Shown: positions 16,016 through 42,359 of the stretch, piece by piece | Layout of the letters: every line of letters starts with the position of its first letter | How positions within the stretch are numbered: the first letter of the stretch is position 1 | Assembly: GCA_024690265.1 (NCBI GenBank) | Contig: JAILCW010000054.1 | Location: forward strand, 1 to 42,359 | Reading direction: 5' to 3' | Source: Lachnospiraceae bacterium | GTDB taxonomy: Bacteria; Bacillota; Clostridia; Lachnospirales; Lachnospiraceae | Length of the DNA: 42,359 bases | Program-made: the position numbers and the translations under genes | Notes under the pieces: model-generated | The model's database searches: none | The model's input: the letters and a program-made list of their open reading frames with translations, nothing else | Told to the model about the DNA's origin: nothing

Positions 16016-16693
16016 ATGCAAAAGATTATAAAAACTATTTATGGCTTGTTGTTATCATTAATCATGATTTCTTTTTCGACTATTAATGCAGAAGCAATCT
16101 CTTTCCATGGCCCAAATAACACCACACTACTAGAAGAGAAAAAGTTAACATCATTAGGGCAAGAATTTATAACCACTTCTGTTTCAAAAGAAGAATTTCT
16201 TATAATTCATCCTGAAATTAATAACATCGAAGAAACTGAAATTATAGGAAAAGACAAAGAACAAATCGTCTCATTTTGCTCTAATACAGGAGACATTGAT
16301 ACCGATGACGTTGCGCTTACTCACACAATTATTAGTTCATCCAATCCAGACTTAAAACTACATATCTTAGAAGCTACTGCAAAGGAAAGCAAAGGCTCTA
16401 AGACCAAAAATGGAGTAACGTTAAGCGGATCCATTCATTGGGTTGATCGCAAAGGAACAAATAATGCTCTAACTGGAGTCTGGGGATCGCGCAGCGGCTC
16501 TTGGACAGGTACGATGACGTATGAATATGGTGCAGGATGGAAACCACTAGGTACTGGTTCAAGCACCCGGAGTCATTGTGGCGAAAGCATTCATTCAGGA
16601 CAAAACGGGTTTTCGTTTTACTTTTCTCTAAATTCTCCTTCAACAGACGGAAGTACCGTCTCCCTTACAATACAAACTTCAGCATTTGACTAA
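16016..16693 (+). CDS. Hypothetical secreted protein (AT-rich islet)
   Basis: GAGGAGG RBS; Sec signal peptide ending A-E-A; no family recognised. Confidence 0.8.
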   Translation: MQKIIKTIYGLLLSLIMISFSTINAEAISFHGPNNTTLLEEKKLTSLGQEFITTSVSKEEFLIIHPEINNIEETEIIGKDKEQIVSFCSNTGDIDTDDVALTHTIISSSNPDLKLHILEATAKESKGSKTKNGVTLSGSIHWVDRKGTNNALTGVWGSRSGSWTGTMTYEYGAGWKPLGTGSSTRSHCGESIHSGQNGFSFYFSLNSPSTDGSTVSLTIQTSAFD

Positions 16694-16713
16694 AATACGG
16701 GGGGGGTAGAAGA

Positions 16714-17232
16714 TTGTTACACGCGCGTCGCCTTCTAGTAGGTATTATATGCTTCATGCTCGCCTATATACTAGTTTTGCTTTCATATTTGTACAGTCGT
16801 ATATATATCGGTAAAAGCATTGCTGGCATTATCAGTTTTCCATTTGAAAAGTTCTGGATTGCTTCAGCTCTACTAGGCATTATTATCTTTATGATATTAA
16901 AAAAATGGGTTACAAGTTTTAGCACAAAAAATATATCCACATCCACAGTTCTTTTAGCATTTCTTATAGGGGTATGGGTTTTCGTTGAAACATGTGGTTA
17001 CTCGTTAATTTCAATTGCCGATTTCTATTGGAATCATCTCGAACAAATGGAATCATTTTATAACCATATCGGTTTATTAAACGAACATACGCCAGAAGAC
17101 TTAAGTATCAATATTATTTTTTTGTTATTTGATTTTACACCATCTAATATACTAAACGCACTAATTGCATACGCAACATATTATGTATGCATGATTAACA
17201 TGTGGATAAAACAACGCCATAAATCAAACTAA
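16714..17232 (+). CDS. Hypothetical membrane protein, about 4 TM helices (AT-rich islet)
   Basis: TTG start after a G8 run; four hydrophobic stretches; 20 bp after the secreted-protein gene. Confidence 0.7.
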   Translation: MLHARRLLVGIICFMLAYILVLLSYLYSRIYIGKSIAGIISFPFEKFWIASALLGIIIFMILKKWVTSFSTKNISTSTVLLAFLIGVWVFVETCGYSLISIADFYWNHLEQMESFYNHIGLLNEHTPEDLSINIIFLLFDFTPSNILNALIAYATYYVCMINMWIKQRHKSN

Positions 17233-17234
17233 CA

Positions 17235-17464
17235 GCCCGACCGTCAGGTACATAAATCTGCCAGACGATGCATTGCATGTTTTCTGTAGCGACCATGCAG
17301 AAGCGTCGGCGCTTGAAAGTAGAAAGAGGAGGAACTGCTCGTAAAGCAAGTTCCTCCTCTTTTTAGTTTCTTAGCGTCCGTTACGCTTATGCCTGCAGCG
17401 AAAGCGATGTCGCGGGAAAATATGCGATGTGTCGGCTGGCCGCTGCAAATTGCAACGGTCGGGC
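17235..17464 (-). repeat. Bulged-hairpin dispersed element, copy A
   Basis: Outer IR GCCCGACCGT / ACGGTCGGGC; minus-strand core CATATTTTCCCGCG...CGCTACAGAAAACATG aligns with copies B and C; apical 14-bp stem at 17323-17362. Confidence 0.75.
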
Positions 17465-17471
17465 GTCCCTC

Positions 17472-36996: not shown

Positions 36997-38706
36997 TTAC
37001 TTAGTTTTGGATGCAATGAGTGCTGCATAGACCTTCGCCGGCATCGGACGCTGATAGATATAGCCCTGTGCCATATCGCAGCCAAGCTTCTTAAGAACTT
37101 CTACTTGTTCCTTGGTTTCTACGCCTTCGGCTACGGTCTTGATGTTTAATTTCTTCGCCATATTAATGACAAATTCCAGGATACTCAAATCCTGCTCGAT
37201 TTCTTCAAATTCAACACTCAAGAATCGCATATCAAGCTTTAATTCATTGATTGGAAGATACTTCAGCGATACCAGGTTAAAGGAGCCCTTGCCAAAATCA
37301 TCCAGAAGCACCGTATATCCCCCATTATGCAATCGCTGGATTTCTCGCCCGACGCGTTCCGGATCTTCTGTATATGCAGTCTCTGACACCTCAATCTGAA
37401 TCAAATCTCTCGTCAGTTGATAACGATCTATCATCTCATCCAAGGTTGCCGTCACATCCAGCATGAAAATATCCGCCTTGGATACATTGACAGAAATAGG
37501 AAGCACGCTGCGTCCGGCATCCATACACTGGCGCTGCCAACGACACACTTCTTCCCACACAATCACATCCACATTGGAAATGAAGCCAGTTCTCTCTAAT
37601 GCCGGCAGAAAGGCTCCCGGAACCACCAGACCTTTGTCCTTGTGTATCCAGCGTACCAATGCCTCAGACGCAACCACCTGCCCCGTTGCCACATCATATT
37701 TCGGCTGGAGGAAAAACTCAAATTCCTGATTGCTCTCGCCCCGCCTGATATCTACCAACAACTGGAAGTCATCCTCCACACGCTGACTCATCTCTTCCTC
37801 GTACATCTTGAGGTTCAGGGTATAGTCAGCCTTAATGCTGGCCAATGCCATCTTGGCACGGTCATATAGCGCATGAGCCGAATCCTCTTCTGCCCCTAGC
37901 ACATAAATACCAAACTTCGGATGGAACCCTGGCTGGAAGTTCTCAAAATACCCCTCTTCCTCCGCCATGGTATGCAGCTGCAACATCAATGCCGGCGCAT
38001 TCGGTGCAAACATTGCAAAATCATCGCCGCCCATGTATCCTACATAACCACCATGACGTTGCACCAATTCCTTAAGCTTCTTGGCTAATTCCTGCAGATA
38101 GATATCGCCCTTCTCCCAGCCATAATAGTTGTTATACAGCTTAAAGTTGGCAATATCTGCTGCTACCATAATTGCGCCCACTTCCCCCATTTGCTTGAGG
38201 CGTGAGTGCACGTTGTTATAAAATGTCTTCTTCAAGTCCACGCCGGTCAATCGATCCGCTCTCTTATCTCCCACCAGATAATCCTGATCTATTTCCGTTA
38301 CCACCTGTTTCTGCTTGGCGAACAGTGAAACCGTAGTCAGCACGCGGCGCTTAACGGTACGCTCCGAGAATGGACGCGTAATAAAATCAATGGCACCCAA
38401 ATCAAATGCCCGCTCAATGTTATTCTCCATGTCATCCACGGATATAATCATTACCGGCAAATAATCCGTCATGTGCTTACTGCGCATGAATTCCAGCACG
38501 TCGAATCCACTCATTCCAGGCATCACCAAATCCAGCAGCACAATATCCAATTCCTGGAAGTGCTCCATCAGGATTTCCTTGGCATCTTCTCCTGTGGTTG
38601 CCTCGATAAACAAGATGTCATCCTTCAATATCTCCTTCAACATCTCGCGATTCATCATGGCGTCATCGACGATTAACCCCTTGTAACGTTTCCTCTTCTC
38701 AGACAT
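36997..38706 (-). CDS. Response regulator with REC-GGDEF(GGDDF)-EAL domains, probable c-di-GMP phosphodiesterase
   Basis: LIVDD...LLDLVMPGMSG receiver domain; DRLTG, DIANFKLYN, GGDDF; QPK, EALVRW, SVNVS, LDDFGKG, VAEGVET, QGY. Confidence 0.92.
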   Translation of the reverse strand: MSEKRKRYKGLIVDDAMMNREMLKEILKDDILFIEATTGEDAKEILMEHFQELDIVLLDLVMPGMSGFDVLEFMRSKHMTDYLPVMIISVDDMENNIERAFDLGAIDFITRPFSERTVKRRVLTTVSLFAKQKQVVTEIDQDYLVGDKRADRLTGVDLKKTFYNNVHSRLKQMGEVGAIMVAADIANFKLYNNYYGWEKGDIYLQELAKKLKELVQRHGGYVGYMGGDDFAMFAPNAPALMLQLHTMAEEEGYFENFQPGFHPKFGIYVLGAEEDSAHALYDRAKMALASIKADYTLNLKMYEEEMSQRVEDDFQLLVDIRRGESNQEFEFFLQPKYDVATGQVVASEALVRWIHKDKGLVVPGAFLPALERTGFISNVDVIVWEEVCRWQRQCMDAGRSVLPISVNVSKADIFMLDVTATLDEMIDRYQLTRDLIQIEVSETAYTEDPERVGREIQRLHNGGYTVLLDDFGKGSFNLVSLKYLPINELKLDMRFLSVEFEEIEQDLSILEFVINMAKKLNIKTVAEGVETKEQVEVLKKLGCDMAQGYIYQRPMPAKVYAALIASKTK

Positions 38707-38765
38707 AATAACAACCCCCGTTATTCAATCTAAAAACGTGTATTCTATTATACTATAAAATAAAG

Positions 38766-38912
38766 GCGCCGCCCACCACCAATACATTTTCTCGCGGGAT
38801 TGCTCTCGCTACCTCTGCAGAAGTAGCAGTCACATACAAAGCTGCTTCGCACCTTTTAGTGCTGACGTCTGCAAAGGCCCGCTACTGAAAATATATTGAT
38901 GGTGGGCGGCGC
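38766..38912 (+). repeat. Bulged-hairpin dispersed element, copy B
   Basis: Outer 13-bp IR GCGCCGCCCACCA / TGGTGGGCGGCGC; shares the exact 22-mer GACGTCTGCAAAGGCCCGCTAC (38864-38885) with copy C (42082-42103). Confidence 0.85.
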
Positions 38913-38917
38913 TGTTT

Positions 38918-39415
38918 TTAATGTCTAAGCTCTTTCATATTTAGTATTCTCTGATTACGACTACCCCTAAATTGTAAGGAAATGTCCTTTTCCTCCAATT
39001 TAAATTCTCCATCTACGAGGATGTCATAAGAATCTAGTAGTTCATCGGTGACCTCACAATGAGCTTTACCATTGGGGGCAGCCAAATCTGTCTCATAGGT
39101 ATATCCGGAGTAACACCAAATATTTTTGTCTGGATGGAGCTGCTTGATCTTGCGAATCATTGGGAGAAGGGCGCGCTGATTTTCCGGCTCCATTGGTTCG
39201 CCTCCCAGGAGAGTTAGACCTTCGGTGAAGGGGTCGTCTAGGGAGTCGATAATCTGCCAGGCCACCTCTTCTGTGAAGGGCTCACCATAATTAAAGTCCC
39301 AGGTCTGAGGTTGGAAGCAGCCCTTGCAATGATGGGTACAGCCGGATACGAACAGGACGGTACGCACTCCGGTTCCATTAGCTATGTCATGATATTTGAT
39401 CACTGAATAATTCAC
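38918..39415 (-). CDS. nrdG: Anaerobic ribonucleotide reductase activating protein (radical SAM)
   Basis: DIANGTGVRTVLFVSGCTHHCKGC, LLGGEP, LVDGEF, FRGSRNQR; GTG start after GAGAGGT. Confidence 0.96.
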   Translation of the reverse strand: MNYSVIKYHDIANGTGVRTVLFVSGCTHHCKGCFQPQTWDFNYGEPFTEEVAWQIIDSLDDPFTEGLTLLGGEPMEPENQRALLPMIRKIKQLHPDKNIWCYSGYTYETDLAAPNGKAHCEVTDELLDSYDILVDGEFKLEEKDISLQFRGSRNQRILNMKELRH

Positions 39416-39434
39416 AGTTAATACCTCTCTCAGC

Positions 39435-39468
39435 AAAAAATCCCTGCACCACATTTGTGATGCAGGGG
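39435..39468 (-). terminator. Terminator-like hairpin between nrdD and nrdG
   Basis: Minus strand CCCTGCATCACA-AA-TGTGGTGCAGGG then ATTTTTT. Confidence 0.7.
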
Positions 39469-39495
39469 AATTCTTATTATTTAATGCGCGTCTTT

Positions 39496-41727
39496 TTACA
39501 GATGAAGGACCCGGTCCTTGATCTCCTGGGTACGTCCCTGGTTCCAGAACTGTGTTCCGATGTAACCACAGGTACGACGTGCTACAGACATCTTGTCCTG
39601 GTCACGGTTACCGCAGTTCGGGCACTCCCAAACCAACTTGCCGGAGTTATCTTCTACGATCTTAATCTCTCCGTCATAACCACAAACCTCACAGAAATCA
39701 CTCTTGGTGTTCAGCTCTGCATACATGATGTTGTCATAAATGAACTTCATAACAGAGATAACAGCCGGAATGTTATGCTGCATGTTTGGAACTTCGATGT
39801 AGCTGATAGCGCCTCCCGGAGACAGCTTCTGGAATTCAGACTCGAACTTCAGCTTGTCGAATGCATCGATTTCCTCAGTAACATGAACATGATAACTATT
39901 GGTGATATAGTTCTTGTCAGTTACGTGTGGAATGATACCAAAACGCTTCTGTAATGCCTTAGCAAACTTATATGTCGTAGACTCCATTGGAGTTCCGTAT
40001 ACAGAGTAGTCAATGTTCTCTGCCGCTTTCCACTCAGCACACTTATCGTTGAGCTTCTGCATAACCTTGACGGCGAACTCCTTACCCATTGGATCGGTAT
40101 GAGATACACCAAGCATACGATAGCACATCTCGCTCAAGCCTGCATAACCAAGAGAGATGGTGGAATATCCGTTGTATAACAACTTATCAATGGTCTCACC
40201 CTTCTCAAGTCGAGCCAATGCACCATGCTGCCATAAGATTGGAGCAACATCAGATACGGTGCCGAGCAAACGCTCGTGACGGCAACGAAGTGCACGATGG
40301 CACAACTCCAAGCGATCTTCCAAAATAGACCAGAACTTGTCCATATCACCATAGGAAGAGCAAGCAACATCAACCAGGTTAATTGTTACAACACCCTGAT
40401 TGAATCGGCCATAGTAACGACGCTCACCTTCACGATAATTGCGACGCTTCTCGATATTGCCAATTCCCGCTGCAGTAAATCGATCCGGTGTTAAGAAAGA
40501 ACGGCAACCCATGCATGTATAAAGGTCTCCACCCTTTAACTCCTTCATTACCTTGGCAGAAATATAATCAGGAACCATACGCTTTGCAGTACACTTCGCA
40601 GCAAGCTCCGTTAAGTAGAAGTATGGCGCATCCTCATGAATGTTATCCTCATCCAATACATAAATGAGCTTCGGGAATGCCGGTGTTACCCAGACACCCT
40701 TCTCATTCTTAACGCCCTGCATTCTCTGCAGAAGAACTTCCTTGATAATCTTGGCAAGGTCTTCTCTGGTCTGTCCTTCCGGGACCTCATCCAAATACAT
40801 GAACATGGTTACGAATGGAGCCTGACCATTACAGGTCATAAGGGTAATCAACTGATACTGAATGGTCTGGATACCGTTACGAATCTCTGTCTCCAAACGA
40901 TTCTCTGTCAGCTTATCTACAATCTTATCATCAATTGCCTCACCACATTCCTGACGTTCAGCAATTACCTGTGCACGAATCTTCTGACGGCTGATGTCAA
41001 CAAATGGAGCCAAGTGAGACAAGGAGAAGGACTGTCCACCGTACTGATTAGATGCTACCTGCGCAACAATCTGAGTAGTTACATTACATGCAGTAAAGAA
41101 GCTATGTGGACGCTCGATCATGGTCTCGGAAATAACGGTTCCGTTCCACAACATATCCTCTAAGTTAATCAAATCACAGTTATGCTCACGCTGTGCAAAA
41201 TAATCAGAATCGTGGAAGTGGATGATTCCCTCTTCATGCGCCTTAGTAATCTCCTCCGGCAACAATACACGCTGGGTCAAATCCTTGGATACTTCACCTG
41301 CCATGTAATCACGCTGGGTTGAGTTAATAACAGGGTTCTTATTAGAGTTCTCCTGCTTTACCTCTTCATTCAACTGATCAATCAGCGCTAAGATTCCGTT
41401 ATCTGTGGTGTTTGTCTTACGAGACAACTCACGCTTATAACGATAACGCACATACTTCTGAGCGACTTCGTAGCAACGCATCTCCATGATACCGGTCTCT
41501 ACCATATCCTGGATATCCTCTACGTTTACCGCATGAGATGACTCTGCCACCTGACGTGCGATTTTGTCTGCTACTGCCTGAATCTGATAATCGTTCATCT
41601 GATGGATTCCGGCAATCTCAGCGTTCGCTTTACGAATCGCGTTGATAATCTTCTCCTTCTGAAAATCTACCTCGCGTCCGTTACGTTTGATAATGTGCGT
41701 GCGAACCTCCAAATCCTTTGTTTCCAA
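39496..41727 (-). CDS. nrdD: Class III anaerobic ribonucleoside-triphosphate reductase
   Basis: ATP-cone IIKRNG, IHFHD, HNC, YTCMGCRSFL, CEVC...CPNC zinc site, RRTCGYIG glycyl radical motif; TTG start with GAGGAGG. Confidence 0.98.
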   Translation of the reverse strand: METKDLEVRTHIIKRNGREVDFQKEKIINAIRKANAEIAGIHQMNDYQIQAVADKIARQVAESSHAVNVEDIQDMVETGIMEMRCYEVAQKYVRYRYKRELSRKTNTTDNGILALIDQLNEEVKQENSNKNPVINSTQRDYMAGEVSKDLTQRVLLPEEITKAHEEGIIHFHDSDYFAQREHNCDLINLEDMLWNGTVISETMIERPHSFFTACNVTTQIVAQVASNQYGGQSFSLSHLAPFVDISRQKIRAQVIAERQECGEAIDDKIVDKLTENRLETEIRNGIQTIQYQLITLMTCNGQAPFVTMFMYLDEVPEGQTREDLAKIIKEVLLQRMQGVKNEKGVWVTPAFPKLIYVLDEDNIHEDAPYFYLTELAAKCTAKRMVPDYISAKVMKELKGGDLYTCMGCRSFLTPDRFTAAGIGNIEKRRNYREGERRYYGRFNQGVVTINLVDVACSSYGDMDKFWSILEDRLELCHRALRCRHERLLGTVSDVAPILWQHGALARLEKGETIDKLLYNGYSTISLGYAGLSEMCYRMLGVSHTDPMGKEFAVKVMQKLNDKCAEWKAAENIDYSVYGTPMESTTYKFAKALQKRFGIIPHVTDKNYITNSYHVHVTEEIDAFDKLKFESEFQKLSPGGAISYIEVPNMQHNIPAVISVMKFIYDNIMYAELNTKSDFCEVCGYDGEIKIVEDNSGKLVWECPNCGNRDQDKMSVARRTCGYIGTQFWNQGRTQEIKDRVLHL

Positions 41728-41739
41728 ACTACTACTCCT

Positions 41740-41863
41740 CCTCTATATTTAGTGGTACTTACAATTCATTTATTTATATGAAAACTATCCGCGAGCCGCG
41801 AAATTACAAGAAAAATCACAAAATCTAGACACTCACAAAAGAATGAAACACTATATCTTGTAC
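41740..41863. promoter_or_regulatory. NrdR boxes upstream of nrdD
   Basis: ACACTATATCTTGTAC (41848-41863) and TCACAAAATCTAGACA (41816-41831) are 32 bp apart and match acaCwAtATaTwGtgt; a third candidate CCACTAAATATAGAGG (minus strand, 41740-41755) abuts the RBS. Confidence 0.8.
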
Positions 41864-41934
41864 ATGAATCATCATATACCATATATACCAAAAATGGAAG
41901 AGGAATTTTTAAAATCTGCTAACTTAGTGACGCA

Positions 41935-42127
41935 CCCCTCTAAGCATGAACATATTTTCCCGCGGGGTCGCTTCTTCGCTCCGCTTCGGTCGTTGCTAAG
42001 CGAACGTCCCCCGGACGTTCAGCAACGCTTCCTCTACAGACGTAGCGGATACTACGAAATTACTGCGCAATTTCTAGTACCGACGTCTGCAAAGGCCCGC
42101 TACGGAGAATATATAGATGAGCAGGGG
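41935..42127 (+). repeat. Bulged-hairpin dispersed element, copy C, with a nested 49-bp hairpin
   Basis: CATATTTTCCCGCG (41951) is identical to the copy A end; 22-mer identical to copy B; extra segment 41981-42029 relative to copy B. Confidence 0.85.
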
Positions 42128-42136
42128 CTCTGTTTG

Positions 42137-42190
42137 CTACATATTAATTGTAAAAGTAAGCGTTTTACCATCCTTGCTAGCCGCAGATAT
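42137..42190 (-). CDS. 3' end of a host-like gene, possibly the tail of a sensor histidine kinase HATPase domain
   Basis: Reads ISAASKDGKTLTFTINM-stop, resembling the last beta strands of HATPase_c; cut off upstream by high-GC sequence. Confidence 0.4.
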   Translation of the reverse strand: MSAASKDGKTLTFTINM

Positions 42191-42192
42191 CT

Positions 42193-42357
42193 ATCGAATC
42201 CCTGGTCGTAGCCGCCGAACATGCCGTGGAGGGAGAGGATCACCGGGGCCTGCCGGGGGCCGGTGTCGATGTAGGCGATGCGACCGTGGCTGAGCCGGGA
42301 TGTGCGCGCGGGGTAGCGGGAGAGTCGGGCCCTGCCGGCGGCGCGGGCCCGCCGGAG
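42193..42357 (-). other. High-GC fragment encoding part of an alpha/beta hydrolase N-terminus; probably foreign or chimeric
   Basis: 45 of 60 bases are G/C at 42241-42300; translates to RLSHGRIAYIDTGPRQAPVILSLHGMFGGYDQGFD (HG oxyanion motif). Confidence 0.65.
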
Positions 42358-42359
42358 GC

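What the first reader, a model, noticed from the sequence alone, without database searches (positions are those of the whole stretch)
38766..38912. Three divergent copies of an unannotated long bulged-hairpin element with compensatory covariation
Seen in sequence: copies A (core 17276-17424, minus), B (38785-38895, plus) and C (41951-42113, plus) share one architecture. It runs: basal stem ATATTTTCY/GARAAYAT; a GCG/CGC stem with a TA bulge; a one-sided loop like RTCGCTTTCGCT; a TRCAG..GT/ACG..CTGCA stem; then fixed small bulges and a variable apex. The upper stem covaries. A: GCGT-aa-CGG-a-CGCT-aa-GAAA...TTTC-a-AGCG-CCG-ACGC. C: ACGT-ag-CGG-a-TACT-ac-GAAA...TTTC-t-AGTA-CCG-ACGT. B: AAGT-ag-CAG-t-CAC-atac-AAAG...CTTT-t-AGTG-CTG-ACGT. 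Pairing and bulge positions are kept while sequence drifts. Orientation relative to the upstream minus-strand gene differs (sense for glnA, antisense for nrdG). Established: REP/REPIN elements (RAYT HUH transposases), IS200/IS605 ends and integron attC sites are recognised as folded ssDNA through extrahelical bases. Inference: a non-autonomous structure-recognised mobile element or a structured RNA family whose enzyme is encoded elsewhere. Three copies in 42 kb suggest many more genome-wide. I cannot tell whether the family is already described.
Basis: partly seen in the sequence, partly recalled or inferred. Interest (0 to 1): 0.85.

Follow-up and report, generated by a model that had tools for sequence, protein, structure and literature searches.

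The report
Folded mobile repeat of gut Lachnospiraceae
The three hairpins are copies of an apparently undescribed, gene-less repeat of gut Lachnospiraceae bacteria that keeps one precise folded shape while its sequence drifts and comes and goes between related genomes; it likely spreads because an as-yet-unidentified enzyme recognises that shape, and in some lineages it also rides inside miniature transposons.

Summary
The genome has 22 matches (about 19 loci); 34 of 44 pairs covary. A covariance model finds the family in 49 of 150 genomes of the family (Lachnospiraceae), in 0 of 145 other Clostridia, and up to 138 times per genome. Rfam has no match. The unit is a rod: an AG…CGT foot, a ~40-nt stem, a three-way junction with a GNRA mini-hairpin, a bulged core and a variable apex. 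Orthologous sites are often empty. Close inverted pairs have fixed polarity (34 head-to-head, 0 tail-to-tail). Young copies in other lineages lie inside MITEs with at least two unrelated end types. One partner was found: an IS1182-like element that inserts 14-19 nt upstream of ribosome-binding sites and lacks the rod. The window's copies have neither such ends nor target duplications. No RAYT, Ssn-like nuclease, Rpn or reverse transcriptase is linked, so their enzyme is unknown. The scan noted this IS/MITE pair, and probably this repeat family, before on other DNA. New variant of REP/REPIN/MITE-type repeats.

The parts
38767..38911 (-). Copy B rod (folded strand is minus). It begins 4-6 nt after the nrdG stop codon. 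Core 5' arm 38867-38859, apex hairpin 38855-38837, core 3' arm 38833-38822.
   Evidence: (105.7 bits); absent between the same two genes in G003
38801..38810 (-). Side mini-hairpin of copy B (GC-GAGA-GC, GNRA loop) at the three-way junction
38912..38914 (-). 5' foot (CAG) of copy B; the 3' CGT foot is decayed in this copy
17236..17463 (+). Copy A rod (folded strand is plus, antisense to glnA). It ends 3-8 nt from the glnA stop codon. Core arms 17304-17312 and 17374-17385, long 55-nt apex, GAAA side hairpin 17397-17406, feet CAG 17233-17235 and CGTCC 17464-17468.
   Evidence: (114.1 bits); absent after glnA in G002 and G003
41933..42129 (-). Copy C rod (folded strand is minus). Core arms 42085-42077 and 42052-42041, feet CAG 42132-42130 and CGTCA 41932-41928.
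   Evidence: (86.9 bits); absent upstream of nrdD in G001-G003
41973..42025 (-). 53-nt second hairpin element nested in the GNRA loop of copy C
   Evidence: a contig of run X1 skips 41972 to 42026 with two letters between; a similar insert sits in a non-orthologous copy in G002

Best explanation
The three hairpins are members of a Lachnospiraceae family of gene-less, 150-230-nt rod-shaped repeats that are gained and lost between related genomes, and they likely move because a trans-acting enzyme, not identified here, recognises the folded single strand, as with REP/REPIN or Neisseria NTS repeats. Shown: strand-specific fold; Watson-Crick covariation; fixed geometry (AG…CGT foot about 40 nt below a core with extrahelical CT and T on the 3' arm; GNRA mini-hairpin; free apex); empty sites; both orientations to host genes; strict head-to-head polarity of close inverted pairs. 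Inferred: the folded form is ssDNA; the foot is the cut or joining end; new copies arise near existing ones in a fixed polarity and are tolerated just after stop codons. Shown for other lineages only: rods wrapped in IS-type inverted repeats form MITEs with target duplications. For one end type the matching autonomous IS1182-like DDE element was found, and it would mobilise these MITEs to sites upstream of ribosome-binding sites. The window's copies lack such ends and duplications.
For: Covariation: with the core positions left free, 218 of 219 and 217 of 219 copies keep Watson-Crick pairs at two positions (T-A/C-G and G-C/A-T swaps). The AG…CGT foot is the top of all dinucleotide/trinucleotide combinations tried (73 of 200 copies), mode 40 nt from the core. 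Mobility: 11 of the 20 relatives' copies with a locatable orthologous interval are empty in G000; A, B and C are absent in congeners. No sense bias: 37 sense vs 43 antisense between co-directional genes, against a cis-acting mRNA element. Polarity: 34 head-to-head, 0 tail-to-tail, 10 tandem among neighbours within 1.3 kb, from 315 listed matches in 12 genomes. Tandem duplications of arm fragments lie next to rods, as in BIME/NIME arrays (the comparison is my own knowledge). The autonomous IS does not contain the rod, and its MITEs also carry unrelated cargo or none (72 of 104 have the GNRA motif), so the rod is a separate unit.
Against: No enzyme was found: none among 681 neighbouring ORFs or 7,272 six-frame segments near 284 matches. 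Y1/HUH, small GIY-YIG, Rpn and RT families do not track the repeat. The outer end of TIR-bounded rods sits 74-78 nt from the core in two unrelated end types, and several G000 copies have an outer stem at 66-75 nt; this fits old MITEs with decayed ends as well. The GNRA loop (93 of 114 unselected hits) and G-T wobble in the outer stems are typical RNA signatures. No precise empty site for a foot-bounded copy was obtained, so the foot is not proven to be the end.
Confidence: 0.5

Rival explanations
1. All copies are MITEs moved by ordinary DDE transposases through their outermost inverted repeats, which differ by lineage. The window's copies are old ones whose ends and duplications have decayed. 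The rod is cargo kept because it works as an RNA structure (terminator, RNase III site or stabiliser) at gene ends.
For: 33 of 282 rods have terminal repeats plus an 8-13-bp duplication, against 0 of 300 controls, in at least two unrelated end types at the same distance from the core. The matching IS was found for one type. One G002 copy has a degenerate ~11-bp duplication 19 nt before a Shine-Dalgarno motif (read by eye). Genus copies sit where relatives have terminators; 16 of 36 lie within 15 nt of a stop codon.
Against: 0 of 16 G000 rods have ends plus duplication; 1 of 54 genus copies has a duplication, at chance level. G000 arms are locus-specific and match no IS end held. A terminator or RNase III site does not need a strand-specific junction, fixed bulges and a fixed ruler, and half the copies are antisense to the host transcript. 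TIR transposition does not explain 34:0 polarity.
Confidence: 0.3
2. The rod is a structured RNA (ribozyme-like or retro-mobile) made from the folded strand, and the DNA copies are products of RNA-mediated spread.
For: The GNRA loop keeps a purine at position 3; the same strand folds better in 200 of 219 copies; one upper-loop variant resembles an 11-nt tetraloop receptor (my reading, motif recalled).
Against: No Rfam match. RT domains occur in 4 of 12 element-rich vs 5 of 8 element-negative genomes. The core has almost no G-U pairs. There is no sense bias. Where duplications exist, DDE ends explain them.
Confidence: 0.12
3. It is a canonical RAYT-dependent REP/REPIN or Ssn-dependent NTS/SRM repeat whose enzyme gene was missed or lost.
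For: GTAG and CGTC words occur at stem feet. Head-to-head dimers predominate in CGTC REPs (PMC3733652, section 6). Ssn genes are flanked by CGTC hairpins (PMC11893778).
Against: The rod is 150-230 nt, not 20-50. CGTC lies 3' of the stem, whereas in NTS it lies 5'. The SRM consensus is not met. RAYT-like genes in G002/G003 carry other repeats. Small GIY-YIG genes are unlinked and were not found in G012 or G036.
Confidence: 0.08

Closest known systems
REP/BIME/REPIN repeats with RAYT (TnpA-REP), incl. GTAG and CGTC families (PMC3733652; PMC6006769)
   Same: Extragenic, multi-copy, imperfect palindromes near stop codons, an unpaired tag at the stem foot, head-to-head dimers and tandem arrays, patchy copy number. 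CGTC families are also reported to lack a dedicated transposase.
   Different: Five to ten times longer, with a three-way junction, GNRA mini-hairpin and fixed bulges. Firmicutes and Clostridia are not mentioned in PMC3733652. No RAYT is linked.
NTS/dRS3/SRM repeats with Ssn GIY-YIG ssDNA nucleases (PMC11893778)
   Same: ssDNA hairpin with a CGTC tag and an opposite CYRG-like tail; hundreds of copies; enzyme often elsewhere.
   Different: Order of tags is reversed (AG 5', CGTC 3'); the SRM pattern is not matched; no Ssn-like gene lies beside any copy examined.
MITEs mobilised in trans by a cognate IS (here an IS1182-like/ISNCY DDE element)
   Same: TIR-bounded copies in G005 and gut metagenomes share ends, 10-13-bp duplications and the target rule with the 1.75-kb IS.
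   Different: The window's copies have no TIR or duplication. The rod is absent from the IS and recurs inside unrelated end types.
Integron attC sites (features recalled, not looked up)
   Same: One preferred folded strand, extrahelical bases on one arm, variable terminal structure.
   Different: No RYYYAAC/GTTRRRY core, no cassette arrays, no linked integrase, both orientations.
bcr1 of the Bacillus cereus group (named in scan note e1-3879300; features recalled, not looked up)
   Same: Lineage-specific, ~150-nt, structure-conserved dispersed repeat of unknown mover.
   Different: Different taxon; no sequence comparison was made here.

Membership tests
RAYT-dependent REP/REPIN | RAYT (Y1 HUH) gene flanked by the repeat or present in carrier genomes | tested here: not met
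   No PF01797 in G000, G005, G012, G038, G059 or G015, G087, G128. RAYT-like genes have other repeats. 1 of 30 IS200-type Y1 loci had a rod, ~650 nt away, in a genome with 138 copies.
RAYT-dependent REP/REPIN | 20-40-nt hairpin with a GTAG guide 5' of the stem | tested here: inconclusive
   An NNAG foot lies 5' of the stem in 71 of 200 copies, but GTAG in only 2; the unit is 150-230 nt.
RAYT-dependent REP/REPIN | Inverted doublets, extragenic position | tested here: met
   34 head-to-head pairs; all G000 copies are intergenic.
Ssn/NTS (SRM) | SRM consensus with CGTC 5' of a short stem | tested here: not met
   Compared by eye with the consensus in PMC11893778: CGTC is 3' of the rod and lacks the following W; no genome scan with the SRM pattern was run.
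Ssn/NTS (SRM) | Small GIY-YIG gene flanked by the repeat | tested here: not met
MITE of the SD-targeting IS1182-like element | Terminal repeats shared with the IS and a 9-13-bp duplication (window copies) | tested here: not met
   No such TIR and no transposase in G000; 0 of 16 G000 rods.
MITE of the SD-targeting IS1182-like element | Same features (G005 and metagenome copies) | tested here: met
   61 of 104 with a duplication vs 0.05% control; 73 of 104 with an SD motif 8-32 nt away vs 11.7% control; IS ends.
IS1182 family (for the partner transposase) | NCBIfam IS1182 model above cut-off | tested here: not met
   84.5 bits vs cut-off 270; Pfam DUF772 plus weak DDE_Tnp_1. Hence 'IS1182-like'.
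Integron attC | R-box core and same-orientation cassette array with IntI | tested here: not met
   Consensus has no R boxes; contexts.
Described structured RNA (Rfam 15) | Match to a covariance model | tested here: not met
Structure-recognised ssDNA element | Binding or cleavage of the folded strand by a protein | not testable with these tools
   needs biochemistry

The most novel reading that the evidence does not exclude
The rod is the recognition site of an unknown structure-reading recombinase or nuclease of Lachnospiraceae. It is a folded-ssDNA (or RNA) mobile module with a three-way junction and a built-in ruler, which copies itself in fixed polarity, nests into and is nested by other elements, and is repeatedly fitted with the ends of different insertion sequences, one of which homes to translation-initiation sites.
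Probability: 0.3. Interest if true: 0.8.

Novelty: new variant of a known kind. Interest (0 to 1): 0.52.

Why it matters
About a third of sampled Lachnospiraceae genomes, a major gut family, carry this repeat, some more than 100 times, at stop codons and ribosome-binding sites where it can alter termination and translation. Its strict fold gives a ready substrate for fishing out a new structure-specific ssDNA or RNA enzyme. The partner IS gives a testable case of a DDE transposase that homes to Shine-Dalgarno sites. If the rival holds, it is an ordinary MITE family with unusually well-kept cargo.

Tried and rejected
Rfam: no match at the gathering score or by E-value on 38,600-42,359 and six relatives' loci. 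Plasmids: no blastn match for copy B or the G005 MITE. Viral contigs: a loose pattern gave chance hits (1 weak match in the 80 of 120 loci scored); strict patterns gave 4 and 0 stretches, 1 real. Enzyme candidates not linked: Y1/RAYT, small GIY-YIG (65, 80, 89), Rpn/PDDEXK_2 (82, 85), RT (110), G000's IS1634-type gene (83, 85, 98). For the GTTAC-ended MITEs of G032, the IS256 and IS66 ends there do not match and PF13751 found nothing in G032. Genes between head-to-head pairs are host or hypothetical genes, with no recurring family. My recollection that the 2013 REP paper links CGTC repeats to GIY-YIG genes was wrong. My recollection that some G000 outer arms are IS200-type ends found no support. 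No RNA holder listed, so expression is untested. Read-laying gave no clean empty site for A, B or C. The Atlas look-up for the 202-aa cargo ORF returned nothing usable. Literature searches with no description of this family or of the SD-targeting IS. ISfinder and most subscription journals could not be searched; no supplements were read.

Full report
OBSERVATION. Iterated nhmmer finds 22 matches in the 2.13-Mb, 77%-complete genome. Three of these share flanks with another match (C159 and C187 with C11; C26 with copy C), so there are about 19 loci. On an alignment of 18 full-length copies (the 3 partial copies and copy C were left out), 93.4% of cells pair and 34 of 44 pairs change on both sides; 0 of 500 shuffles match this and slid controls pair 33-53%. 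Copies within a genome are related, so this is not a formal probability.

ANATOMY (folded strand). 5' foot NAG, about 40 nt of stem with small internal loops, a core CGYCRGYRC paired to GYR(T)CYG(CT)RCG with an extrahelical CT and usually an extrahelical T, a small T-rich internal loop and a free apex hairpin; on the way down, a side mini-hairpin at a three-way junction and a 3' foot CGT(C). With the variable core positions left free, 218 of 219 and 217 of 219 copies keep Watson-Crick pairs at two positions, 197 and 201 of 219 at two others, and G-T pairs are nearly absent from the core. In 114 hits found by a pattern that ignored the side loop, 93 have a GNRA loop, 8 another loop and 13 no side hairpin. 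The AG…CGT foot is the best of all combinations tried (73 of 200) and sits most often 40 nt from the core. Copy C has a 53-nt second element in its side loop that a contig of run X1 lacks.

DISTRIBUTION. Model R1 hits 10 of 18 same-family and 0 of 12 other-family genomes of the order, 49 of 150 family genomes under strict filters (a floor), and 0 of 145 genomes of other families in the class (one genome unscored). In a pattern scan of species genomes, 71 of the 80 listed records (of 121 stretches, scan cut at its limit) are titled Lachnospiraceae or genera I know to belong to it, which identifies the family. Copy number reaches 138, 68 and 67 with candidates capped at 150. Rfam has no match.

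MOBILITY. B is absent between the same two genes in G003, where a short terminator-like hairpin stands; G001 and G002 lack both B and the neighbouring gene. A is absent after glnA in G002 and G003, and C upstream of nrdD in all three. Of 55 matches in congeners, 20 had a locatable orthologous interval in G000; 11 were empty (8 distinct sites) and 9 filled. Orthologous copies can have entirely different arms, and run X2 has a different variant at locus C. Between co-directional genes the folded strand is sense in 37 and antisense in 43 cases. In the genus, 16 of 36 rods with a stop codon nearby end within 15 nt of it. Among neighbours within 1.3 kb, 34 pairs are head-to-head, none tail-to-tail and 10 tandem (315 listed matches in 12 genomes, some lists truncated, some pairs orthologous).

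THE MITE LAYER. In G005 the core lies in near-identical 215-286-bp elements with terminal repeats TAGRCAATTGCGAAAC. Among 104 such TIR-bounded elements from G005, other genomes and metagenomes, 61 show a 10-14-bp duplication (control 0.05%), 73 have a Shine-Dalgarno motif 8-32 nt away, mostly 16-18 (control 11.7%), and 72 carry the GNRA motif; the rest are deletion forms or carry unrelated hairpins. One 1,647-bp element with these ends encodes a 458-aa DUF772/DDE protein, best but sub-threshold match IS1182. Homologues occur in 29 of 151 family genomes, not in G000, G002 or G005. Of 16 copies examined, 11 have 9-12-bp duplications and 15 have an SD-like motif (loose pattern) 14-19 nt away, always on the same side. 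None contains the rod. Rods also occur inside other ends: GTTAC/GTAAC ends with 8-10-bp duplications in G032, and a head-to-head composite in G059. Overall 33 of 282 rods have ends plus duplication (0 of 300 controls), mostly 74-78 nt from the core, but 0 of 16 in G000. Only 1 of 54 genus copies has a duplication, and G000 arms match no IS end held.

ENZYME SEARCH. There is no transposase or nuclease family among 681 ORFs near 155 copies (top 45 clusters read by eye) and no HUH or small GIY-YIG motif in 7,272 segments near 284 matches. Y1 genes were not found in eight element-rich genomes (several are incomplete). RAYT-like genes of G002 and G003 are flanked by their own different repeats. Rpn, small GIY-YIG and RT do not track the repeat.

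MECHANISM. I favour (0.5) a non-autonomous element whose folded strand is read by an enzyme in trans. Strand-specific bulges, a ruler from foot to core, no sense bias, polar doublets and independence from the IS are shown; ssDNA as the folded form, the foot as the end and the enzyme itself are inferred. The main rival (0.3) is that every copy is a MITE and the window's ends have decayed; the equal position of outer stems across classes favours it. An RNA-level element (0.12) is suggested by the GNRA loop. Canonical RAYT or Ssn membership (0.08) failed the tests that could be run.

LITERATURE SEEN. PMC3733652: abstract, sections 6 and 14, passages. PMC6006769: passages. PMC11893778: abstract and passages. 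bioRxiv 10.64898/2026.09.22.753630: passages. PMC9208149: passages. None describes this family. Searches found no description; ISfinder, subscription journals and supplements were not seen, so 'undescribed' is provisional. attC, bcr1, BIME/NIME and tetraloop-receptor features are recalled, not looked up. Earlier scan notes describe an SD-targeting IS1182-like family (e1-951441), a MITE with such a partner (e1-5255755) and a Lachnospiraceae rod/three-way-junction repeat that may be this family (e1-3879300). The first two were seen after my own IS result and the third; the Ssn paper came from note e1-1060876. Sequence look-ups of the notes found no look-alike.

VERDICT. Real, family-wide, mobile, structurally unusual, enzyme unknown: a new variant of REP/REPIN/MITE-type repeats, interest 0.52.

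Noticed in passing
L552, L596, L597, L602, L625-L633 (G096, G097, G117 and others): An IS1182-like insertion sequence (~1.75 kb, ~490-aa DDE) inserts 14-19 nt upstream of Shine-Dalgarno motifs in one orientation with 9-12-bp duplications. A sister group with TAGTCTCTCGGAATC ends seems to do the same (L621, L622).
   Followed up: yes
window 42184-42359: The last ~175 nt are 72% G+C (window 46%), have no cover in four runs and diverge from contig C26, which shares the preceding flank; likely a foreign or chimeric contig end.
   Followed up: partly
window 16016-17232: Two genes with no Pfam match next to copy A are absent in G002 and skipped in a run X2 contig that keeps copy A.
   Followed up: partly
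L024:189-797 (G000:C37) and L003 (G002): A 202-aa ORF with no Pfam match lies between a head-to-head rod pair in both genomes; a 199-aa orphan does the same in L064 (G015).
   Followed up: partly
L667-L675 (G059): A young ~540-bp composite of two different rod subfamilies head-to-head, bounded by near-palindromic AAACTGYAG ends; one copy sits at what looks like the 3' end of tmRNA (L673, by eye).
   Followed up: partly
L644, L645 (G002:C8, G003:C130) and L639, L642, L649: RAYT/TIRYT-like Y1 genes of 250-295 aa flanked by their own GGGACGGGG-type repeats; the same repeat follows the small GIY-YIG gene in L371.
   Followed up: partly
G000:C114:2946-3208: A different ~260-nt structured element occupies the site where G002 has a rod, with similar feet.
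   Followed up: no
G000:C11, C159, C187: Near-duplicate loci (same 297-aa gene and exonuclease III-like gene), suggesting two strains or species in the bin.
   Followed up: no
L107, L108 (G141): Tandem arrays of three or four rods with periods of 164-187 nt.
   Followed up: no
L433 (G000:C7): An intact-looking IS1634-family transposase (515 aa) not linked to the rods.
   Followed up: partly
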